From the IMG/VR virus record IMGVR_UViG_2698536505_000015: a stretch of DNA of 8,994 nucleotides; one strand, given 5' to 3'. The notes beneath the pieces were generated by a model. It had not been told where the DNA came from. It did no database searches and was given only the letters and a program-made list of their open reading frames with translations. Made by a program: the position numbers and the translations under genes. Positions 1 to 8,916 of this stretch are shown here, one piece after another. Position 1 is the stretch's first letter, and every line of letters starts with the position of its first letter. Source of the stretch: a virus (taxonomy: Duplodnaviria > Heunggongvirae > Uroviricota > Caudoviricetes).

Positions 1-50
1 GGCGAATGCTGTTTACGGGGTTTTTTACTGGTTGATACTGTTTTTGTCAT
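1..50 (-). CDS. Partial CDS, N-terminus only (MTKTVSTSKKPRKQHS...), continues beyond the window start; function unknown
   Basis: ATG at 50..48 preceded by GAGGTGA Shine-Dalgarno 5 nt upstream; frame open to the window edge; starts 46 nt downstream of the stop of the 275-aa gene on the same strand. Confidence 0.4.
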   Translation of the reverse strand, partial: MTKTVSTSKKPRKQHS

Positions 51-96
51 GTGAGTCACCTCTGACTGAGAGTTTACTCACTTAGCCGCGTGTCCA

Positions 97-924
97 CTAT
101 TGCTGGGTAAGATCAACCTGATGGTGAATGCGTTTATGGCTGGCACCCATCAGTGAGATTTTTACGCACGACGGCGCATACATGACGGAGTAAAAACTTT
201 TAACGTAGGTTCCGGAATCCAGATACAGCTCGGTCATTCCGCCGCTGTTTTTCTGCGTCTGTTTCTGCCCTAACTGGACAGCACCGATCGTCATAAACAA
301 TTCACCACAGCGACCGAGATTCGTGTACGTATTCACATCCTCGTTAATGCGCCCCATGAATGAGAACGGTCGATCAACCGAACAGATAAAGCTGTTCATT
401 GCCTTGCGTTTCACCCACGAAGCATGGCCGCCATTGTCACCAAGAAAATCCCCGCCCTGCGACATAGCGATGGAAAGAGCAGGTATTGATTCGTAGTACG
501 CCAGCATTTCAGAAAGGATCGCATCCAGTTTCCTTATCGGAAAATAGGCCTGGTCATAGTTGCGATCCACCCGAAACTGGAACTCGTGATAATCATCATC
601 GAGCTGAATGAAGTATTTACACCCGACCAGTTTTGCCAGGTCGAAACAGGCATTACGGGCGTAAAAAATTGAGCGGCGGTCACAGAAATTATCGGCTTCG
701 TCAAAACGACTGGCGATATCGGCTTTGGAAAACACCAGCACCTGTTCACCAAATTCAGCCATGTACTGATTTCGTGTCTTATCTTCATCATCAACAACGA
801 TAAAAATTTTCCCGGTATAGCCAGCACGACGCAACGTCCGGTAAGTCAGAACTTTGTCCGGTCGCCCGTGAGTCAGAATAAAGGCGCAAAAATCATCACG
901 CATATTCCTCCTCCTCACCACCAT
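97..924 (-). CDS. Hypothetical phage protein (Rac ydaY-position); weak GT-A-like pattern (N-terminal beta-strand, IVVDDED and LDDD acidic motifs); function unknown
   Basis: 275-codon ORF; alternative start at 903 (Met8) has a GGAGG-type SD formed by the GAG GAG GAG codons at the 3' end of the upstream gene; overlaps the upstream ParB-like gene by 8-29 nt, suggesting translational coupling. Motifs read directly from the translation; fold assignment is inference. Confidence 0.6.
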   Translation of the reverse strand: MVVRRRNMRDDFCAFILTHGRPDKVLTYRTLRRAGYTGKIFIVVDDEDKTRNQYMAEFGEQVLVFSKADIASRFDEADNFCDRRSIFYARNACFDLAKLVGCKYFIQLDDDYHEFQFRVDRNYDQAYFPIRKLDAILSEMLAYYESIPALSIAMSQGGDFLGDNGGHASWVKRKAMNSFICSVDRPFSFMGRINEDVNTYTNLGRCGELFMTIGAVQLGQKQTQKNSGGMTELYLDSGTYVKSFYSVMYAPSCVKISLMGASHKRIHHQVDLTQQ

Positions 925-1687
925 GCATGATCTCCACCATGCGCTGCGTCATCCGGACAAATCCATTTTCAATAGCCTGCTGATAATCAATGATCACCAG
1001 CGCCGACTCCTCGAAAAAACACTGAATTTCAGAGGGGGCGTGAGCGTAATAGTCCGCAATTCTGCTGAAATTAAACACCGTGTGACGTTCTGCCGCACAC
1101 AGGAGGAATTTCTCAATATCAGGCTCAAGGGACGCCGAACGTATCCGGCTGATCAGCTCCTGAGTTTTCGTATCGTCGTACAGTTCACTGATATCCGGTT
1201 TACCGCCCGACGGCTCATAAACAGGCGTATCAATTTTCGTCGTATACGGCTCCTCCTCATTTCCTGTACCGGGCAAAACATCCGTCAACAGTTCATCAAT
1301 TTCTGTCGGGATGAAGCCTGTCAGGGAGACATCAAAATCAGCATTGATTAGGTCCGACAGCTCCATCCGCAACAGATCTTCATCCCAGCCAGCATTCATC
1401 GGCAGGCGATTATCTGCCAGGCGGTACGCCTTTTTCTGCTCATCCGTCAGGCCAGACAGAACAATGACCGGAACAGAATCCATTTTGAGCATTTCAGCCG
1501 CCATAACACGACCGTGACCCGCAATAATTTCGCCCTTTTCGTCAATCAGCACCGGATTAGTCCAGCCGAATTGCTTAATACTTTCTACCAGTTGTGCCAC
1601 CTGCTCAGGGCTGTGCGTCCTGGCGTTGTGCGCATACGGTGACAATTCTTGTAATGGGCGATAGACTATCTTTAATTTCTCGCTCAT
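896..1687 (-). CDS. ynaK: ParB-like nuclease-domain (ParB N-terminal domain) protein with uncharacterized C-terminal half and acidic tail; full-length counterpart of Rac YnaK
   Basis: 263-aa ORF; N-terminal ~100 aa (..PLQELSPYAHNARTHSPEQVAQLVESIKQFGWTNPVLIDEKGEIIAGHGRVMAA..) matches the ParB/Srx-fold pattern and, from memory, the N-terminus of E. coli K-12 YnaK; lies next to trkG as in Rac. Confidence 0.75.
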   Translation of the reverse strand: MSEKLKIVYRPLQELSPYAHNARTHSPEQVAQLVESIKQFGWTNPVLIDEKGEIIAGHGRVMAAEMLKMDSVPVIVLSGLTDEQKKAYRLADNRLPMNAGWDEDLLRMELSDLINADFDVSLTGFIPTEIDELLTDVLPGTGNEEEPYTTKIDTPVYEPSGGKPDISELYDDTKTQELISRIRSASLEPDIEKFLLCAAERHTVFNFSRIADYYAHAPSEIQCFFEESALVIIDYQQAIENGFVRMTQRMVEIMHGGEEEEYA

Positions 1688-1700
1688 ACAGCCTTGCTTT

Positions 1701-1738
1701 ATGAATAAAACGCACCCCAGCAGCCAGTGCTACTGGGG
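1701..1738 (-). terminator. Rho-independent terminator downstream of trkG (minus-strand sense)
   Basis: Inverted repeat ccccagcagc (1715-1724) / gctactgggg (1729-1738) with 4-nt loop, one G-U wobble; followed on the minus strand by UGCGUUUUAUUCAU (complement of 1701-1714). Ends 13 nt before the ynaK-like start codon. Confidence 0.5.
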
Positions 1739-1824
1739 ACGGAGGGGTTGCTGGTAAAGTTAGGTATTGGATCAATGAGTGAGTCAACATAATATTAAAC
1801 TCACAATTATAAATCAGCCATATA

Positions 1825-3282
1825 TTAGGAGCGCCAAAAAAAACCTGAAAACAATATAATAACAGGATAAATTTCAAGGCGACCAAGAATCATAGCTATG
1901 CACATTAAACATTTTGCAATGTCATTAAGCACTCCGAATGACGATGCAGTAGCCCCAAAACCTAATCCCATATTATTAATACATGCAGCCACTGTTGCAA
2001 ATGATGTAAGAAAATCATATCCCATACCATTTAACACCAGTATAAAAAACACCGTGAAGAGAGTATAAAGAAAAAAGAAACTCCATACAGACCTCATTAC
2101 ACGATCTGTAACTATCTTCCCTCCTACATTTACACTCAACAACGCTCTGGGATGAGAAAGCTGATTTATCTCGTGTTTGCTTTGTTTGAAAAGTATAAGA
2201 AATCGAAGTGACTTAATTCCACCACAAGTTGAACCTATACATCCCCCAAAGAAACTTGACAACAGCAAAAACACTATCGTGTGCGTGGGCCAACTTGCAT
2301 AATCCTGCGTAGCTAAACCATTATCAGTGAGCATGGAGCTGGCAAGAAAAAACGAATGAATAAAACTTCCATGCAAGTCATACATACCTATATGCCAGAC
2401 CTGGAAAGAGGTAACAATGATCACCCCTAAGGCTATTAACAGAAAGAAACGAAGTTCAATATCTCTGATTAAAGGTTTTATCGTTTTCCTGCTAATAACA
2501 ATATACCAAAGAGTGAAGTTGAAAGCCGATAGCAGGGAAAAAGAACCAGCCACCAGCTCAACCAAATAGTTATTAAAATATCCGATACTCTCGCTATGAG
2601 TTGAGAAACCACCAAGCGAAACTGTGGAAATCCCGTGACAAATAGCATCAAACAAAGGCATTCCTGCAAGTCTATAACAGACAATACAAGCAATACCTAA
2701 TAAAGAATAAGTTATCCACAGTGTCCGTGACGTATCGGCCAGGCGGGGAGTGAGTTTGTCATCCTTAAATGGCCCCGGCATTTCTGACTGATAAAGCTTT
2801 GCACCACCAATACCCAATAATGGCAATACAGCAACCGCCAGAACAATAACTCCTAAACCACCTATAAAATTTAACTGTGACCGATAGTACAAATATGCCC
2901 GAGGTAATGAACTAACATCATCAATTACAGTTGCTCCTGTTGTTGTTATTCCAGAAACCCCTTCAAACAGAGCATCAATGAACGTTAAATTAAGTTCTGA
3001 GTCAATCCATAAAGGGAATGCACTAATAACAGAAAACAAAATCCAAAACATTACAATTATAATAAACCCATCACGGGTACGTAATTGAATGCCAGATTTC
3101 TTAGTTGTATACCACGCTCCGCCACCAATGCAAAAAAATATAACGAAAGTTATAAAGAAAACGAACAGGATTTTTTCTTTATAAAACAATGCTACAACCA
3201 TTGGTGGCAACATTGAAAGACTATAGAGCCAAACCAGGAACCCACACATATGAGTAACAACTCTTACATGAGATGTATTCAT
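1825..3282 (-). CDS. trkG: TrkH/TrkG-family potassium uptake membrane protein (Rac-type trkG moron)
   Basis: Polytopic membrane protein, 485 aa from the ATG at 3282 (the ORF-track start at 3300 is a TTG extension); repeated pore-loop-like glycine motifs (SGITTTGATV, GGFSTHSESIGY, GGCIGSTCGGIK); strong resemblance to E. coli TrkG/TrkH from memory; gene and upstream region visibly more AT-rich than flanking phage genes. Confidence 0.9.
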   Translation of the reverse strand: MNTSHVRVVTHMCGFLVWLYSLSMLPPMVVALFYKEKILFVFFITFVIFFCIGGGAWYTTKKSGIQLRTRDGFIIIVMFWILFSVISAFPLWIDSELNLTFIDALFEGVSGITTTGATVIDDVSSLPRAYLYYRSQLNFIGGLGVIVLAVAVLPLLGIGGAKLYQSEMPGPFKDDKLTPRLADTSRTLWITYSLLGIACIVCYRLAGMPLFDAICHGISTVSLGGFSTHSESIGYFNNYLVELVAGSFSLLSAFNFTLWYIVISRKTIKPLIRDIELRFFLLIALGVIIVTSFQVWHIGMYDLHGSFIHSFFLASSMLTDNGLATQDYASWPTHTIVFLLLSSFFGGCIGSTCGGIKSLRFLILFKQSKHEINQLSHPRALLSVNVGGKIVTDRVMRSVWSFFFLYTLFTVFFILVLNGMGYDFLTSFATVAACINNMGLGFGATASSFGVLNDIAKCLMCIAMILGRLEIYPVIILFSGFFWRS

Positions 3283-3419
3283 ATCTAAATATTCTTTCAA
3301 TTATAACCACCTTGCTGCAATATTATGATTATACTGTATAAAATTTAACTCCTCTTAGATCTTACTTCACTGTTCCTTATGAAACAATCATCAAAATGAA
3401 TCATATTGTAGTTAAGATT

Positions 3420-4844: not shown

Positions 4845-5240
4845 CTAACCTCGCATGTCAAAGCCAGATTTCTGAAAATCTCTGTAGACTTCCGGATTGT
4901 TGAAGGCCGGAAATTTGGCTTTATGAGCTGCGGACTTTATCGCTTCGCAATAGGCTTTATCACCGTTACTGGTAGATATTTTTAACGCCGTGCCATCCTG
5001 AGAGAATTCCATATGCAACCTGCATTTTTTCCCTTTCCAGTTATGCGGCTCATCAAGTTTGGCATTAATTGCAGCTCTGATTCCCCGCGCTTGCGCCCCC
5101 CATTCATCCTGATCATCCCAGCGTCCTGAACTGCAACTACCTGTAGCAGTAGTTTTGTGGCAATCTGAAGGGTGTAAAGGTGTGCATCCCGCAACAAAAC
5201 CGACCCAAAAAGTCAACATAACGATTTTCTTTAATCCCAC
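4845..5240 (-). CDS. Lipoprotein with TolA C-terminal domain (domain III)-like mature region, paralog 2
   Basis: GTG start with GAGGAG SD 7 nt upstream; signal peptide with lipobox FVAGC; mature part shares GK.C.L...DG.L.I...GD..C.A...AA..AK.P....VY..F pattern, including a Cys pair, with paralog 1 and with E. coli TolA domain III as recalled. Confidence 0.7.
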   Translation of the reverse strand: MGLKKIVMLTFWVGFVAGCTPLHPSDCHKTTATGSCSSGRWDDQDEWGAQARGIRAAINAKLDEPHNWKGKKCRLHMEFSQDGTALKISTSNGDKAYCEAIKSAAHKAKFPAFNNPEVYRDFQKSGFDMRG

Positions 5241-5390: not shown

Positions 5391-5819
5391 TCAGGGTTTA
5401 AAATCCAGCACCCCATTTTGAAATACTTTATATACTTCCGGCGAAGGGGGGGCAGGTATATCAGCATTCTTTATCGCATTCATCGCTTCACGACATAAAT
5501 CGAGGTCTCCACTTTCTCTTTTAACCTCCAGTAGAAGGCCATTCGGGGCCATATGCATTCTCAGTGTACACTCTTTTCCTGAATACTTACTCGCATCCCC
5601 GAACTGTTTTTCGATGGCGCTCTTGATTTGATGGGCATACAGACGGATATCCTCACTAACATCAGAAGTACGTTCAGATGAACTCACATACTGTGTCTCT
5701 ATTGCTTTATCGGAGTAATATGATGTACGGTCATGATAATTTGTCGATACAGCATCAGTGCACCCGATAATAATCCCACTAATAATCAACGTAAGAATTG
5801 ATGCGCTACGAAAACCCAT
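5391..5819 (-). CDS. Lipoprotein with TolA C-terminal domain (domain III)-like mature region, paralog 1
   Basis: ATG with GAGGA SD; signal peptide with lipobox IIGC; C-terminal 85 aa (YAHQIKSAIEKQFGDASKYSGKECTLRMHMAPNGLLLEVKRESGDLDLCREAMNAIKNADIPAPPSPEVYKVFQNGVLDFKP) aligns closely with the C-terminus of E. coli TolA as recalled. Confidence 0.8.
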   Translation of the reverse strand: MGFRSASILTLIISGIIIGCTDAVSTNYHDRTSYYSDKAIETQYVSSSERTSDVSEDIRLYAHQIKSAIEKQFGDASKYSGKECTLRMHMAPNGLLLEVKRESGDLDLCREAMNAIKNADIPAPPSPEVYKVFQNGVLDFKP

Positions 5820-8760: not shown

Positions 8761-8916
8761 TTACTCCTCAGGTTCGTAAGCTGTGAAGACAGCGACCTCC
8801 GTCTGACCGGTTCGGATTCGCACCTCGCAGAGGTCTTTCCTCGTTACCAGTGCCGTCACTATGACGGTTAAACAGATGACAATCAGTGCGACTAACATCG
8901 CCTTTTGCTGCTTCAT
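8761..8916 (-). CDS. hok: Hok/Gef-family type I toxin (HokD/RelF-like)
   Basis: Hand translation gives MKQQKAMLVALIVICLTVIVTALVTRKDLCEVRIRTGQTEVAVFTAYEPEE (51 aa), the Hok/Gef pattern with TM helix and conserved C..C; AGGAGAA SD upstream; below the ORF-track cutoff. Confidence 0.85.
   Translation of the reverse strand: MKQQKAMLVALIVICLTVIVTALVTRKDLCEVRIRTGQTEVAVFTAYEPEE

What the first reader, a model, noticed from the sequence alone, without database searches (positions are those of the whole stretch)
97..1687. Overlapping gene pair: ParB-like nuclease-domain protein plus a 275-aa protein with weak GT-A-like motifs, candidate DNA-targeting module
The 263-aa protein has a clear ParB N-terminal (ParB/sulfiredoxin-fold) domain and about 160 aa of unassigned C-terminal sequence ending in an acidic tail. 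Its 3' end overlaps the start of a 275-aa protein whose N-terminal third shows the beta-strand / IVVDDED ... LDDD pattern seen in nucleotide-sugar (GT-A fold) transferases, though that fold call is weak. The pair sits after the lysis cassette and trkG, corresponding to the ynaK/ydaY remnants of Rac, which are truncated in K-12; here both frames are intact. ParB-like domains recur in phage DNA-modification and packaging-initiation contexts, so the pair could be a DNA (glyco)modification cassette, a packaging-site recognition module, or a defence/anti-defence pair. A minus-strand terminator abuts the ynaK-like start, so the pair is probably expressed mainly from Q-antiterminated late transcripts.
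Basis: partly seen in the sequence, partly recalled or inferred. Interest (0 to 1): 0.6.

Follow-up and report, generated by a model that had tools for sequence, protein, structure and literature searches.

The report
Prophage ParB-like partner plus DNA-type glycosyltransferase
Two overlapping prophage genes encode a ParB-like protein and a sugar-transferring enzyme of a family known to decorate phage DNA; the pair recurs just ahead of the DNA-packaging genes in viruses of bacteria and archaea, its target is unknown, and the copy in this window is cut short by an insertion element.

Summary
The gene pair is real. ORF 896-1687(-) is an intact 263-aa ParB/Srx-fold protein.

Three details are wrong:
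- The homolog-supported start is the ATG at 903, so the overlap is 8 nt, not 29.
- The glycosyltransferase (GT) is not intact. An IS3 end (window 1-115) replaces its last 47 residues.
- K-12 ydaY is not a GT remnant. Only ynaK is a remnant, of the ParB gene.

In 244 viral loci (67 clusters at 70% identity) this GT always has a ParB-like gene directly upstream. The two usually overlap by 4-14 nt and usually sit just before the terminase genes. No TET/JBP dioxygenase or thymidylate-synthase homolog recurs nearby.

The ParB N-terminal domain is shared with phage ParB-methyltransferase fusions. Its C-terminal motif plus domain occurs only with this GT, co-diverges with it, and stands alone in some Vibrio phages.

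Best reading: a late-expressed, two-subunit DNA-glycosylation module. The ParB-like protein docks the GT and tethers or activates it on DNA. The acceptor is unknown and untested. It is a new variant of known kinds. About 16% of complete E. coli genomes carry the pair.

The parts
1..115 (-). Terminal 115 nt of an IS3 element inserted into the 3' part of the glycosyltransferase gene.
   Evidence: Other genomes and phages match the window only from base 116 onward. In the strain identical over 1-1900, an IS3 transposase CDS runs into this end. The sequence was read directly.
97..903 (-). TAGT-family GT-A glycosyltransferase gene, truncated. Bases 116-903 encode native residues 1-263. Bases 100-115 encode five IS-derived residues (DLTQQ), and the stop codon is at 97-99.
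   Evidence: Pfam PF20691 at E 9.7e-35 and phrog_842 at E 4.7e-100. It is 262/263 identical to the 310-aa WP_001204028. Invariant residues are R14, D102-D103-D104-Y105, Q149-G-G-D152, R166-K167 and N187-E-D-V190...Y193. The fold is GT-A.
896..903 (-). 8-nt overlap between the ParB stop codon and the GT start codon (translational-coupling junction).
   Evidence: Sequence read. An overlap of 4-14 nt is found in 61 of 67 representative loci, with a mode of 11 nt.
905..916 (-). GAGGAGGAGGAA. These are the codons of the ParB acidic tail (EEEE) and double as a Shine-Dalgarno sequence for the GT start codon.
   Evidence: Read directly from the sequence. The ribosome-binding role is inferred.
896..1687 (-). 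Intact 263-aa ParB-like protein, the full-length form of K-12 YnaK.
1283..1687 (-). ParB/Srx NTP-binding fold plus a helical extension (aa 1-135). Box I is N21-A-R23, Box II is G57-H-G-R60 (canonical GERR), and Box III is D92-N93.
   Evidence: The profile alignment to Noc pairs IIAGHGR with IIAGERR and LADN with LIEN. Foldseek aligns 142 columns to Noc 7nfu at rmsd 3.3. This region is shared with ParB-methyltransferase fusions: phrog_498, PADLOC MTase_II and 497 phage records.
1208..1252 (-). Conserved linear motif YTxKIxxPxYEPxG(xKP), aa 146-160, inside an otherwise disordered acidic linker.
   Evidence: Y148, K151, P155, Y157 and P159 are invariant in A3 and at least 80-95% conserved across 67 diverse loci. 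pLDDT is below 50 here.
938..1195 (-). C-terminal domain (aa ~165-250) specific to GT-associated ParB-like proteins. It has no Pfam family.
   Evidence: It is found only in phage records that also carry this GT. It is present in 67 of 67 representative partners. It is as conserved as the GT and co-diverges with it. It is free-standing in Vibrio phages. The family has 1189 representatives at 50% clustering.
1715..1738 (-). Terminator-like hairpin with a 10-bp stem (7 G-C pairs) and a T-rich tail. It lies downstream of trkG and 28 nt upstream of the ParB start codon.
   Evidence: Consensus scan. This is a pattern match only.
1825..3300 (-). trkG, a low-GC moron inserted between the lysis cassette and the pair. 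It is context, not part of the module.
   Evidence: GC is 0.33-0.43 against 0.47-0.53 in the flanks. Pfam TrkH matches at E 8e-145. Annotation.

Best explanation
The pair is a two-subunit, late-expressed nucleic-acid glycosylation module of tailed viruses.

The second gene encodes a metal-dependent GT-A glycosyltransferase of the TAGT family. It would use a host nucleotide-sugar as donor.

The first gene encodes its obligate partner. The partner's conserved C-terminal motif and domain would bind, and possibly activate, the GT. Its N-terminal ParB/Srx NTP-binding fold is the module that other phages fuse directly to DNA methyltransferases. It would hold the enzyme on double-stranded DNA, by analogy with the ParB-like activators of phage thymine dioxygenases.

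The genes are translationally coupled and sit at the head of the packaging/late operon. The modification would therefore be installed post-replicatively on DNA about to be packaged, most plausibly to protect it from restriction in the next host.

Shown here: family and fold of both proteins, the strict pairing, the overlap, the position before terminase, the domain-specific co-divergence, and the lack of a linked dioxygenase.

Inferred: that the two proteins bind each other, that DNA is the target, what the acceptor atom is, and what the biological role is.

In this window the GT has lost its conserved C-terminus to IS3 and the prophage is heavily decayed, so this copy is probably inactive.
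For: GT identity:
- Pfam TAGT at E 9.7e-35 and PHROG 842 at E 4.7e-100.
- GT-A fold by AF2 (pLDDT 78) and Foldseek.
- An invariant DDD motif and other catalytic-type residues.

Family precedent for DNA substrates:
- The second GT of T6-like phages is a TAGT (PMC13390438).
- Phage GT-A enzymes glycosylate 5hmC and resemble the base-J glucosyltransferase (bioRxiv 10.1101/2023.12.21.572611; PMC8256090).

Pairing:
- A ParB-like ORF lies immediately upstream in 229 of 254 GT genes scored across 244 viral loci. The remainder are start-codon artefacts of the ORF caller, second tandem GTs, or contig ends.
- The pair is also present in Lactobacillus, Nocardia and Haloarcula viruses.
- The genes overlap by 4-14 nt in 61 of 67 representative loci.

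Position:
- Terminase large subunits lie within the next two genes in most of the 67 representative loci, while upstream genes are not conserved.

ParB domain logic:
- The N-terminal 137 aa hit 497 phage records, mostly ParB-methyltransferase fusions (PADLOC MTase_II).
- The C-terminal 120 aa hit only 28 records, all of them GT carriers.
- The CTD-only 139-aa partner in Vibrio phages is 52% identical.
- Mantel tests give GT against CTD r=0.38, p=0.0005, and GT against NTD r=-0.04, p=0.66.

Precedent for a ParB-like protein without a DNA-binding domain activating a DNA-modifying enzyme on dsDNA: PMC13229309.

Some loci add a second TAGT, sugar epimerases or radical-SAM genes.
Against: - No acceptor is apparent. 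All characterised relatives transfer sugar to a hydroxyl group (5hmC, 5hmU, a sugar, or Ser/Thr). Yet no TET/JBP or thymidylate-synthase-type gene recurs within six genes either side of the pair in 67 loci. None is annotated in the whole phi jlb1 genome or in the 50 of 55.7 kb read of a Rac-like prophage record, which reaches the tape-measure gene.
- Canonical DNA has no base hydroxyl group.
- Box II is GHGR, not GERRxR. The catalytic Glu is replaced, so CTP-clamp behaviour is uncertain. NTP-site mutations did not matter in the dioxygenase system (PMC13229309).
- No DNA-binding domain was recognised. The CTD model has low confidence.
- No ParB-GT fusion protein was found.
- No paper in the held library tests this pair.
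- Linkage to terminase could simply reflect operon position.
Confidence: 0.5

Rival explanations
1. The target is a protein, not DNA. The GT would glycosylate the ParB-like protein itself, for instance the invariant Tyr/Thr of the YTxKIxxPxYEP motif, in a glycogenin-like or GREB1-like way. Alternatively it would glycosylate a packaging or virion protein. The pair would then regulate packaging or decorate the particle.
For: The eukaryotic TAGT homolog GREB1 O-GlcNAcylates a protein (PMC7968844). The top PDB fold matches include the peptide S-glycosyltransferases ThuS and SunS, and glycogenin. An invariant hydroxyl-rich linear motif sits in a disordered linker of the partner. No hydroxylated base source was found. 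The pair sits next to terminase and head genes.
Against: The fold matches are generic GT-A hits at E~1e-4 with TM 0.4. The partner's N-domain is the one fused to DNA methyltransferases. In Vibrio phages the pair sits among replication genes rather than structural genes. Phage members of the family with known activity act on DNA.
Confidence: 0.15
2. The pair is a defence or counter-defence module that does not mark the phage genome. It might, for example, glycosylate a host or competitor nucleic acid, a nucleotide signal, or a host defence protein. The ParB-like NTP-binding protein would act as sensor or regulator.
For: ParB-fold proteins recur in defence contexts such as GmrSD/DUF262 and DndB (PMC12373910; PMC12704722). 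The pair is prophage-borne and present in 889 of 5426 complete E. coli genomes.
Against: PADLOC has no match for the GT. The genes lie inside the late operon, directly before terminase, rather than in a lysogeny-expressed moron slot. The pair also occurs in large lytic phages and archaeal viruses.
Confidence: 0.1
3. The ParB-like protein is mainly a packaging-initiation or partition factor, such as a pac/cos recognition protein or nuclease, and the GT is only a co-transcribed passenger.
For: The pair is consistently placed just upstream of the terminase genes. In Nocardia phage NTR1 it directly precedes the large terminase with no annotated small subunit. These proteins carry historic 'ParB-like nuclease' annotations.
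Against: A separate small terminase subunit normally follows the pair. There is no HTH DNA-binding domain, and no ParA appeared among the neighbour families listed. The most conserved part of the protein is the GT-specific C-terminal half, which also exists without any ParB domain. Strict co-occurrence and co-divergence with the GT argue against a passenger relation.
Confidence: 0.07

Closest known systems
TAGT (TET-associated glycosyltransferase, Pfam PF20691). The family includes the second glucosyltransferase of T2/T6-like phages, phage GT-A enzymes that glycosylate 5hmC, and more distantly the kinetoplastid base-J glucosyltransferase and eukaryotic GREB1.
   Same: It matches the family profile well above threshold, has a GT-A fold, and has an invariant DDD motif and an acidic NED motif. 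It is virus-encoded and sits among DNA-handling genes.
   Different: No TET/JBP dioxygenase, cytosine methyltransferase or hydroxymethylase is linked, so the usual acceptor is missing. This subfamily is instead tied to a ParB-like partner with its own C-terminal domain. The activity is untested, and the window copy is truncated.
ParB-dependent phage thymine dioxygenases (5mYOX plus ParB-like activator; O'Toole et al. 2026, PMC13229309).
   Same: A ParB-fold protein lacking the canonical DNA-binding domain is encoded next to a post-replicative DNA-modifying enzyme in phages. It has an N-terminal NTP-binding fold plus a required C-terminal domain. Box I is of the N-x-R type, as inferred from the residue numbers given in the paper. 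Terminases are frequent neighbours.
   Different: The partner enzyme here is a glycosyltransferase, not a dioxygenase. In that study, GTs were associated with the ParB-independent dioxygenase clade. I could not compare sequences with ParB176 because none were available. Dependence of the GT on the ParB-like protein is only inferred.
Phage ParB_N-DNA methyltransferase fusions (phrog_498; PADLOC MTase_II; surveyed in PMC12704722).
   Same: The first ~140 residues are homologous at 30-58% identity. They are prophage-enriched and have a presumed role in modifying phage DNA.
   Different: There the modifying enzyme is fused in one polypeptide and is a methyltransferase. Here it is a separate, translationally coupled glycosyltransferase reached through an adaptor-like C-terminal domain.
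Chromosomal and plasmid ParB, Noc and KorB CTP-dependent DNA clamps.
   Same: The N-terminal fold is the same (Foldseek and profile hits). The Box I Arg, Box II Arg (R60) and Box III Asn (N93) are retained.
   Different: Box II is GHGR, lacking the catalytic Glu and the first Arg. There is no HTH centromere-binding domain, no ParA partner, and no parS-like repeats in the window.

Membership tests
Pfam PF20691 TAGT / GT-A DNA glycosyltransferases | Match to the family profile above the curated threshold. | tested here: met
   120.8 bits against a cut-off of 27.5, E 9.7e-35, covering profile positions 4-205 of 205. All listed homologs carry PF20691.
Pfam PF20691 TAGT / GT-A DNA glycosyltransferases | GT-A (Rossmann-like, DxD) fold. 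| tested here: met
   The AF2 model of the 99%-identical full-length protein has pLDDT 78 and pTM 0.78. All top PDB matches are GT-A enzymes: ThuS, AvpGT, GnT-I and SpsA. D102-D103-D104 are invariant.
Pfam PF20691 TAGT / GT-A DNA glycosyltransferases | Genomic association with a TET/JBP (5mYOX) dioxygenase or another source of hydroxymethyl-pyrimidine. | tested here: not met
   No PF12851 or thymidylate-synthase family appears among the recurrent families within six genes either side in 67 representative loci. None is annotated in the whole phi jlb1 genome or in the 50 of 55.7 kb read of a Rac-like prophage record. Limits: only the top 25 families are listed per scan, and flanks are at most 8 kb.
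Pfam PF20691 TAGT / GT-A DNA glycosyltransferases | Transfers a sugar to a modified base, or to a sugar on it, in DNA. | not testable with these tools
   Needs biochemistry or LC-MS.
Pfam PF20691 TAGT / GT-A DNA glycosyltransferases | Complete catalytic polypeptide in this window. | tested here: not met
   IS3 removes residues 264-310, including the invariant or near-invariant W265 and K279.
ParB/Srx superfamily (PF02195) | N-terminal ParB/Srx fold. | tested here: met
   Pfam gives 28.9 bits against 26.3. phrog_620 matches at E 8.5e-91. Profile hits to Noc/ParB chains reach E 2e-5. Foldseek hits Noc, ParB, KorB and sulfiredoxin.
Canonical CTP-clamp ParB (ParB, Noc, KorB) | Box II GERRxR with the catalytic Glu and the arginine pair. 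| tested here: not met
   The aligned segment is G57-H58-G59-R60, so only the last Arg is kept. H58 is near-invariant in the family.
Canonical CTP-clamp ParB (ParB, Noc, KorB) | HTH centromere-binding domain, a ParA partner and parS repeats. | tested here: not met
   There is no HTH Pfam hit. The confidently modelled part ends near residue 135. No ParA-type family appears among the neighbour families listed. There are no meaningful repeats in 1-1900.
ParB-activated DNA-modifying enzyme systems (PMC13229309) | A ParB-like gene without a DNA-binding domain, adjacent to a post-replicative DNA-modifying enzyme in a virus. | tested here: inconclusive
   Adjacency, overlap and co-divergence are shown. 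That the GT acts on DNA is inferred from its family, not shown. The enzyme class differs: a GT, not a 5mYOX.
ParB-activated DNA-modifying enzyme systems (PMC13229309) | Enzyme activity on dsDNA requires the ParB-like protein. | not testable with these tools
   Needs co-expression or in vitro assays.
ParB_N-DNA methyltransferase fusions | The ParB_N module is covalently joined to a methyltransferase domain. | tested here: not met
   N-terminal homology is strong. The C-terminal half, however, is a different, GT-linked domain with no Pfam or methyltransferase match.

The most novel reading that the evidence does not exclude
The ParB-like/TAGT pair installs a sugar on phage DNA that carries no hydroxymethyl-pyrimidine. 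The sugar would go on a canonical base, the backbone or a DNA end. That would be a DNA modification chemistry not yet described, present in temperate phages of E. coli and in viruses of many other bacteria and archaea. The unassigned C-terminal domain of the ParB-like protein would be a new glycosyltransferase-activating, DNA-tethering adaptor.
Probability: 0.2. Interest if true: 0.85.

Novelty: new variant of a known kind. Interest (0 to 1): 0.55.

Why it matters
Phage DNA glycosylation is known from T-even phages and from TET- or thymidylate-synthase-linked pathways. ParB-like activators are known so far only for thymine dioxygenases.

This module joins a DNA-type glycosyltransferase to a ParB-like partner with no enzyme in sight that could make the usual acceptor. 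It is nevertheless widespread:
- The C-terminal-domain family has about 1,200 clusters at 50% identity.
- The pair occurs in hosts from Enterobacteria to haloarchaea.
- 889 of 5,426 complete E. coli genomes carry it.

If it marks DNA, it points to an unrecognised modification in ordinary lambdoid prophages. That would affect restriction evasion, sequencing artefacts and phage engineering. If it marks protein, it is a new kind of packaging-linked glycosylation.

Either way it offers a genetically tractable E. coli system for asking what ParB-fold proteins do for DNA-modifying enzymes.

Tried and rejected
- afdb50 fold search, to look for JGT and GREB1 relatives: the library was unavailable.
- Iyer et al. 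2013, which named TAGT and proposed that ParB directs modification enzymes: not held under two identifiers. It is cited only second-hand, through PMC8256090 and PMC13229309.
- Literature searches for TAGT+ParB, ynaK, GREB1+phage and DNA glycosyltransferase+ParB found no experimental work on this pair. The HHTV-2 search returned papers that I did not read.
- NCBIfam gave only sub-threshold ParB hits and nothing for the GT.
- Repeat search in 1-1900 found no parS-like or pac-like repeats.
- The promoter scan found fewer sites than shuffled sequence gave.
- Natural ParB-GT fusion proteins: none in 244 loci, and none among the 150 best representatives of the C-terminal domain.
- The ParB C-terminal domain model has low confidence, so its fold cannot be assigned.
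- Vibrio phage pv27 was only a quarter read. It has thymidylate synthase, DHFR and dNMP kinase. Whether it makes hmC or hmU was not resolved.
Full report
**What is in the window.** All genes run on the minus strand of a decayed lambdoid (Rac/Qin-like) E. coli prophage. The order is a Q-region, two TolA-C-terminal-like ORFs, holin-lysozyme-Rz/Rz1, trkG, then the pair, then an IS3 end. ORF 896-1687 encodes 263 aa and ORF 97-924 encodes 275 aa. Window 1-1900 is 100% identical to E. coli B19374. Most other genomes and ten phage records match only from base 116, because bases 1-115 are the terminus of an IS3.

**The glycosyltransferase (GT).**
- The second ORF matches Pfam PF20691 (TET-associated glycosyltransferase, TAGT) at E 9.7e-35, and phrog_842 at E 4.7e-100. 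RefSeq names the intact protein 'GREB1-related protein'.
- Family alignments start at MRDDF, the ATG at 903. This ATG is preceded by GAGGAGGAGGAA, so the overlap with the upstream gene is 8 nt.
- The native protein is 310 aa. The window retains residues 1-263 and then reads five IS3-encoded residues. It loses a conserved C-terminal segment that includes W265 and K279.
- An AF2 model of the 99%-identical full-length protein (pLDDT 78, pTM 0.78) matches only GT-A enzymes in the PDB: ThuS, AvpGT, GnT-I and SpsA.
- Invariant residues are R14, D102-D103-D104-Y105, QGGD149-152, R166-K167 and N187-E-D-V...Y193. By eye, this resembles the R...DDD...ED motif set reported for phage GT-A DNA glycosyltransferases and the base-J glucosyltransferase (bioRxiv 10.1101/2023.12.21.572611). 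I did not align against those proteins.

**The ParB-like protein.**
- The first ORF is intact. Its N-terminal ~135 residues are a ParB/Srx fold. The evidence is Pfam 28.9 bits, phrog_620 at E 8.5e-91, profile hits to Noc/ParB chains at E 2e-5, and Foldseek hits to Noc, ParB-CDP and KorB.
- The alignment to Noc pairs IIAGHGR with IIAGERR and LADN with LIEN. Box II therefore keeps only its last arginine (R60) and replaces the catalytic Glu with a near-invariant His. The Box I N-x-R and the Box III Asn are present.
- There is no HTH domain. After residue ~135 comes a disordered acidic linker, an invariant linear motif YTxKIxxPxYEP, and a ~90-residue domain with no Pfam match and a low-confidence model.

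**The pairing is a conserved module.**
- tblastn of the GT against 50,697 phage records finds 34 records. Besides the E. coli and Salmonella prophages, these are Lactobacillus, Vibrio, Nocardia, Porphyromonas and Haloarcula viruses.
- In phi jlb1, HHTV-2 and NTR1 a ParB-like gene overlaps the GT start. In phi jlb1 and NTR1 the terminase genes follow directly. In HHTV-2 the large terminase lies about 3 kb downstream.
- Four scans of IMG/VR gave 244 loci, forming 67 clusters at 70% GT identity. A ParB-profile ORF lies immediately upstream of the GT in 229 of 254 GT genes scored. The exceptions are second tandem GTs, start-codon artefacts of my ORF caller, or contig ends.
- The inferred overlap between stop and start is 4-14 nt in 61 of 67 representative loci.
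- The next two genes downstream are dominated by terminase large-subunit families: Terminase_6N in 26, Terminase_3 in 23 and GpA in 2. Small subunits are also present. A second TAGT (3), radical-SAM genes (3) and sugar epimerases (2) appear occasionally. Upstream genes are not conserved.
- No TET/JBP or thymidylate-synthase family recurs within six genes. None is annotated in the complete phi jlb1 genome. None is annotated in the 50 of 55.7 kb read of a largely intact Rac-like prophage record. There the order is Q, tRNAs, S-R-Rz, trkG, ParB, GT, a 69-aa ORF, TerS, TerL and portal.

**Domain logic of the partner.**
- The N-terminal 137 residues hit 497 phage records, mostly annotated as adenine or 'DNA modification' methyltransferases. 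These are ParB_N-methyltransferase fusions, and PADLOC matches the same region to a Type II methyltransferase model.
- The C-terminal 120 residues hit only 28 records, all of which also carry this GT.
- All 67 representative partners contain the C-terminal domain.
- Across these 67, the C-terminal half is the best-conserved part of the protein. Mean pairwise identity is 0.51 for the CTD, 0.30 for the N-domain and 0.49 for the GT.
- GT divergence correlates with CTD divergence (Mantel r=0.38, p=0.0005). It does not correlate with N-domain divergence (r=-0.04, p=0.66).
- In 191-195-kb Vibrio phages the gene upstream of the GT encodes only the motif plus CTD: 139 aa, 52% identical, with no ParB_N. 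It lies among primase, helicase and exonuclease genes.
- A HMMER scan of 1.84 billion representative proteins finds 1189 with the CTD. Most are 250-310 aa, some are 128-200 aa, and none of the 150 best hits listed is long enough to be a GT fusion. The longer ones I checked carry ParB_N.
- I read this as follows. The CTD and motif are the GT-specific partner element, and ParB_N is a separable, exchangeable DNA- or NTP-handling module.

**How it most likely works.** By family, the GT is a nucleotide-sugar-dependent transferase whose phage relatives act on DNA (PMC13390438; PMC8256090; the 2023 preprint). By analogy with the ParB-like activators of phage thymine dioxygenases, the ParB-like protein would dock the GT through its C-terminal half. 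Those activators lack a DNA-binding domain, need both N- and C-terminal domains, and are required only on dsDNA (PMC13229309). The N-domain would keep the complex on DNA. Translational coupling fits a stoichiometric complex. The position at the head of the late/packaging operon fits post-replicative marking of DNA destined for capsids. All of these steps are inferences.

**The main obstacle.** The acceptor is unknown. Known relatives glycosylate hydroxyl groups, and these phages show no way of making hydroxymethyl bases. This keeps three alternatives alive:
- a protein-acceptor reading, with GREB1 as precedent (PMC7968844) and the invariant Tyr/Thr motif as a candidate site;
- a non-genome-marking defence or counter-defence role;
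- a packaging role for the ParB-like protein, with the GT as a passenger.

I give these 0.15, 0.10 and 0.07, against 0.50 for DNA glycosylation.

**Points specific to this locus.**
- The GT is truncated, and in the strain identical over window 1-1900 the prophage carries several IS elements. This copy is therefore probably non-functional.
- K-12 Rac retains only the first ~85 codons of the ParB gene, as ynaK. It then jumps to ydaY, a gene that lies beside the tape-measure gene in fuller prophages. The GT is absent from K-12.
- A terminator-like hairpin follows trkG, 28 nt before the ParB start. Read-through by Q-modified polymerase is plausible but untested.
- 889 of 5426 complete E. coli genomes hold at least 80% of the pair, and 1580 hold some part of it.

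**Novelty and verdict.**
- Both protein families are already named in Pfam and RefSeq.
- ParB proximity to phage GTs has been mentioned in passing (the 2023 preprint; PMC8256090, citing Aravind and co-workers).
- A ParB-activator mechanism is known for dioxygenases.
- I did not find described the stand-alone ParB-like/TAGT two-gene module, its signature C-terminal domain, that domain's co-divergence with the GT, the CTD-only form, or the absence of any acceptor-generating enzyme. No experiment on the pair was found.
- I classify it as a new variant of known kinds, of moderate interest (0.55). There is a 0.2 chance that it reflects an undescribed DNA modification.

Noticed in passing
L253:6459-6878 (Vibrio phage pv27); the same arrangement in phiKT1024, Va1, TY18 and SRILMA: The gene upstream of the TAGT glycosyltransferase encodes only the linear motif plus C-terminal domain. 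It is 139 aa, 52% identical to window ParB aa 136-244, and has no ParB N-domain. It sits among primase, helicase and exonuclease genes rather than by terminase. pv27 also has thymidylate synthase, DHFR and dNMP kinase. Whether its DNA carries hmC or hmU was not determined.
   Followed up: partly
L007:1357-3938 (also L008, L009; soil and Sphingomicrobium MAG contigs): The gene order is HNH endonuclease, ParB-like, TAGT, TAGT. Two tandem glycosyltransferases follow one ParB-like gene, and 5 of 67 representative loci have two TAGT genes. This suggests di-glycosylation in some lineages.
   Followed up: partly
window 1430-1687 (annotation of the identical DNA in NZ_CP142915.1 and NZ_CP032986.1): NCBI's pipeline labels the first 86 codons of the intact 263-aa ParB-like ORF as a 'ynaK pseudogene, missing C-terminus' in many strains. 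In other strains it annotates the full protein. This is probably an artefact of using the truncated 87-aa K-12 YnaK as the reference.
   Followed up: partly
window 4845-5240 and 5391-5819, minus strand: Two ORFs lie between the antiterminator region and the lysis cassette. RefSeq annotates one as a TolA C-terminal-domain protein and the other as a tolA pseudogene. Both begin with lipoprotein-like signal sequences. They could be superinfection-exclusion or colicin-protection morons.
   Followed up: no
window 1825-3300, minus strand: trkG is a low-GC insert (0.33-0.43 against 0.47-0.53 around it) between the lysis genes and the pair, with its own terminator-like hairpin at 1738-1715. It is a classic moron placed inside the late operon.
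   Followed up: partly
window 905-916, minus strand: The glutamate codons of the ParB-like protein's acidic tail (GAGGAGGAGGAA) form the Shine-Dalgarno sequence for the glycosyltransferase start codon. Part of the 'acidic tail' may therefore be constrained at the RNA level.
   Followed up: no
L252:37181-38488 and L252:41163-42275 (Escherichia phage vB_EcoS-683R6, a largely intact Rac-like prophage): Three things follow the pair. The first is a conserved 69-aa ORF of unknown function. The second is an unusually long (364 aa) small terminase, whose Terminase_2 match lies only in residues 122-321. The third is a head protein annotated as an ADP-ribosyltransferase, which matches only the Mu F-like head morphogenesis family.
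   Followed up: partly
window 8761-8916, minus strand: A 51-aa ORF matching the hokD (relF) type I toxin annotated at the corresponding position in B19374 lies at the far end of the window. It is unrelated to the finding.
   Followed up: no
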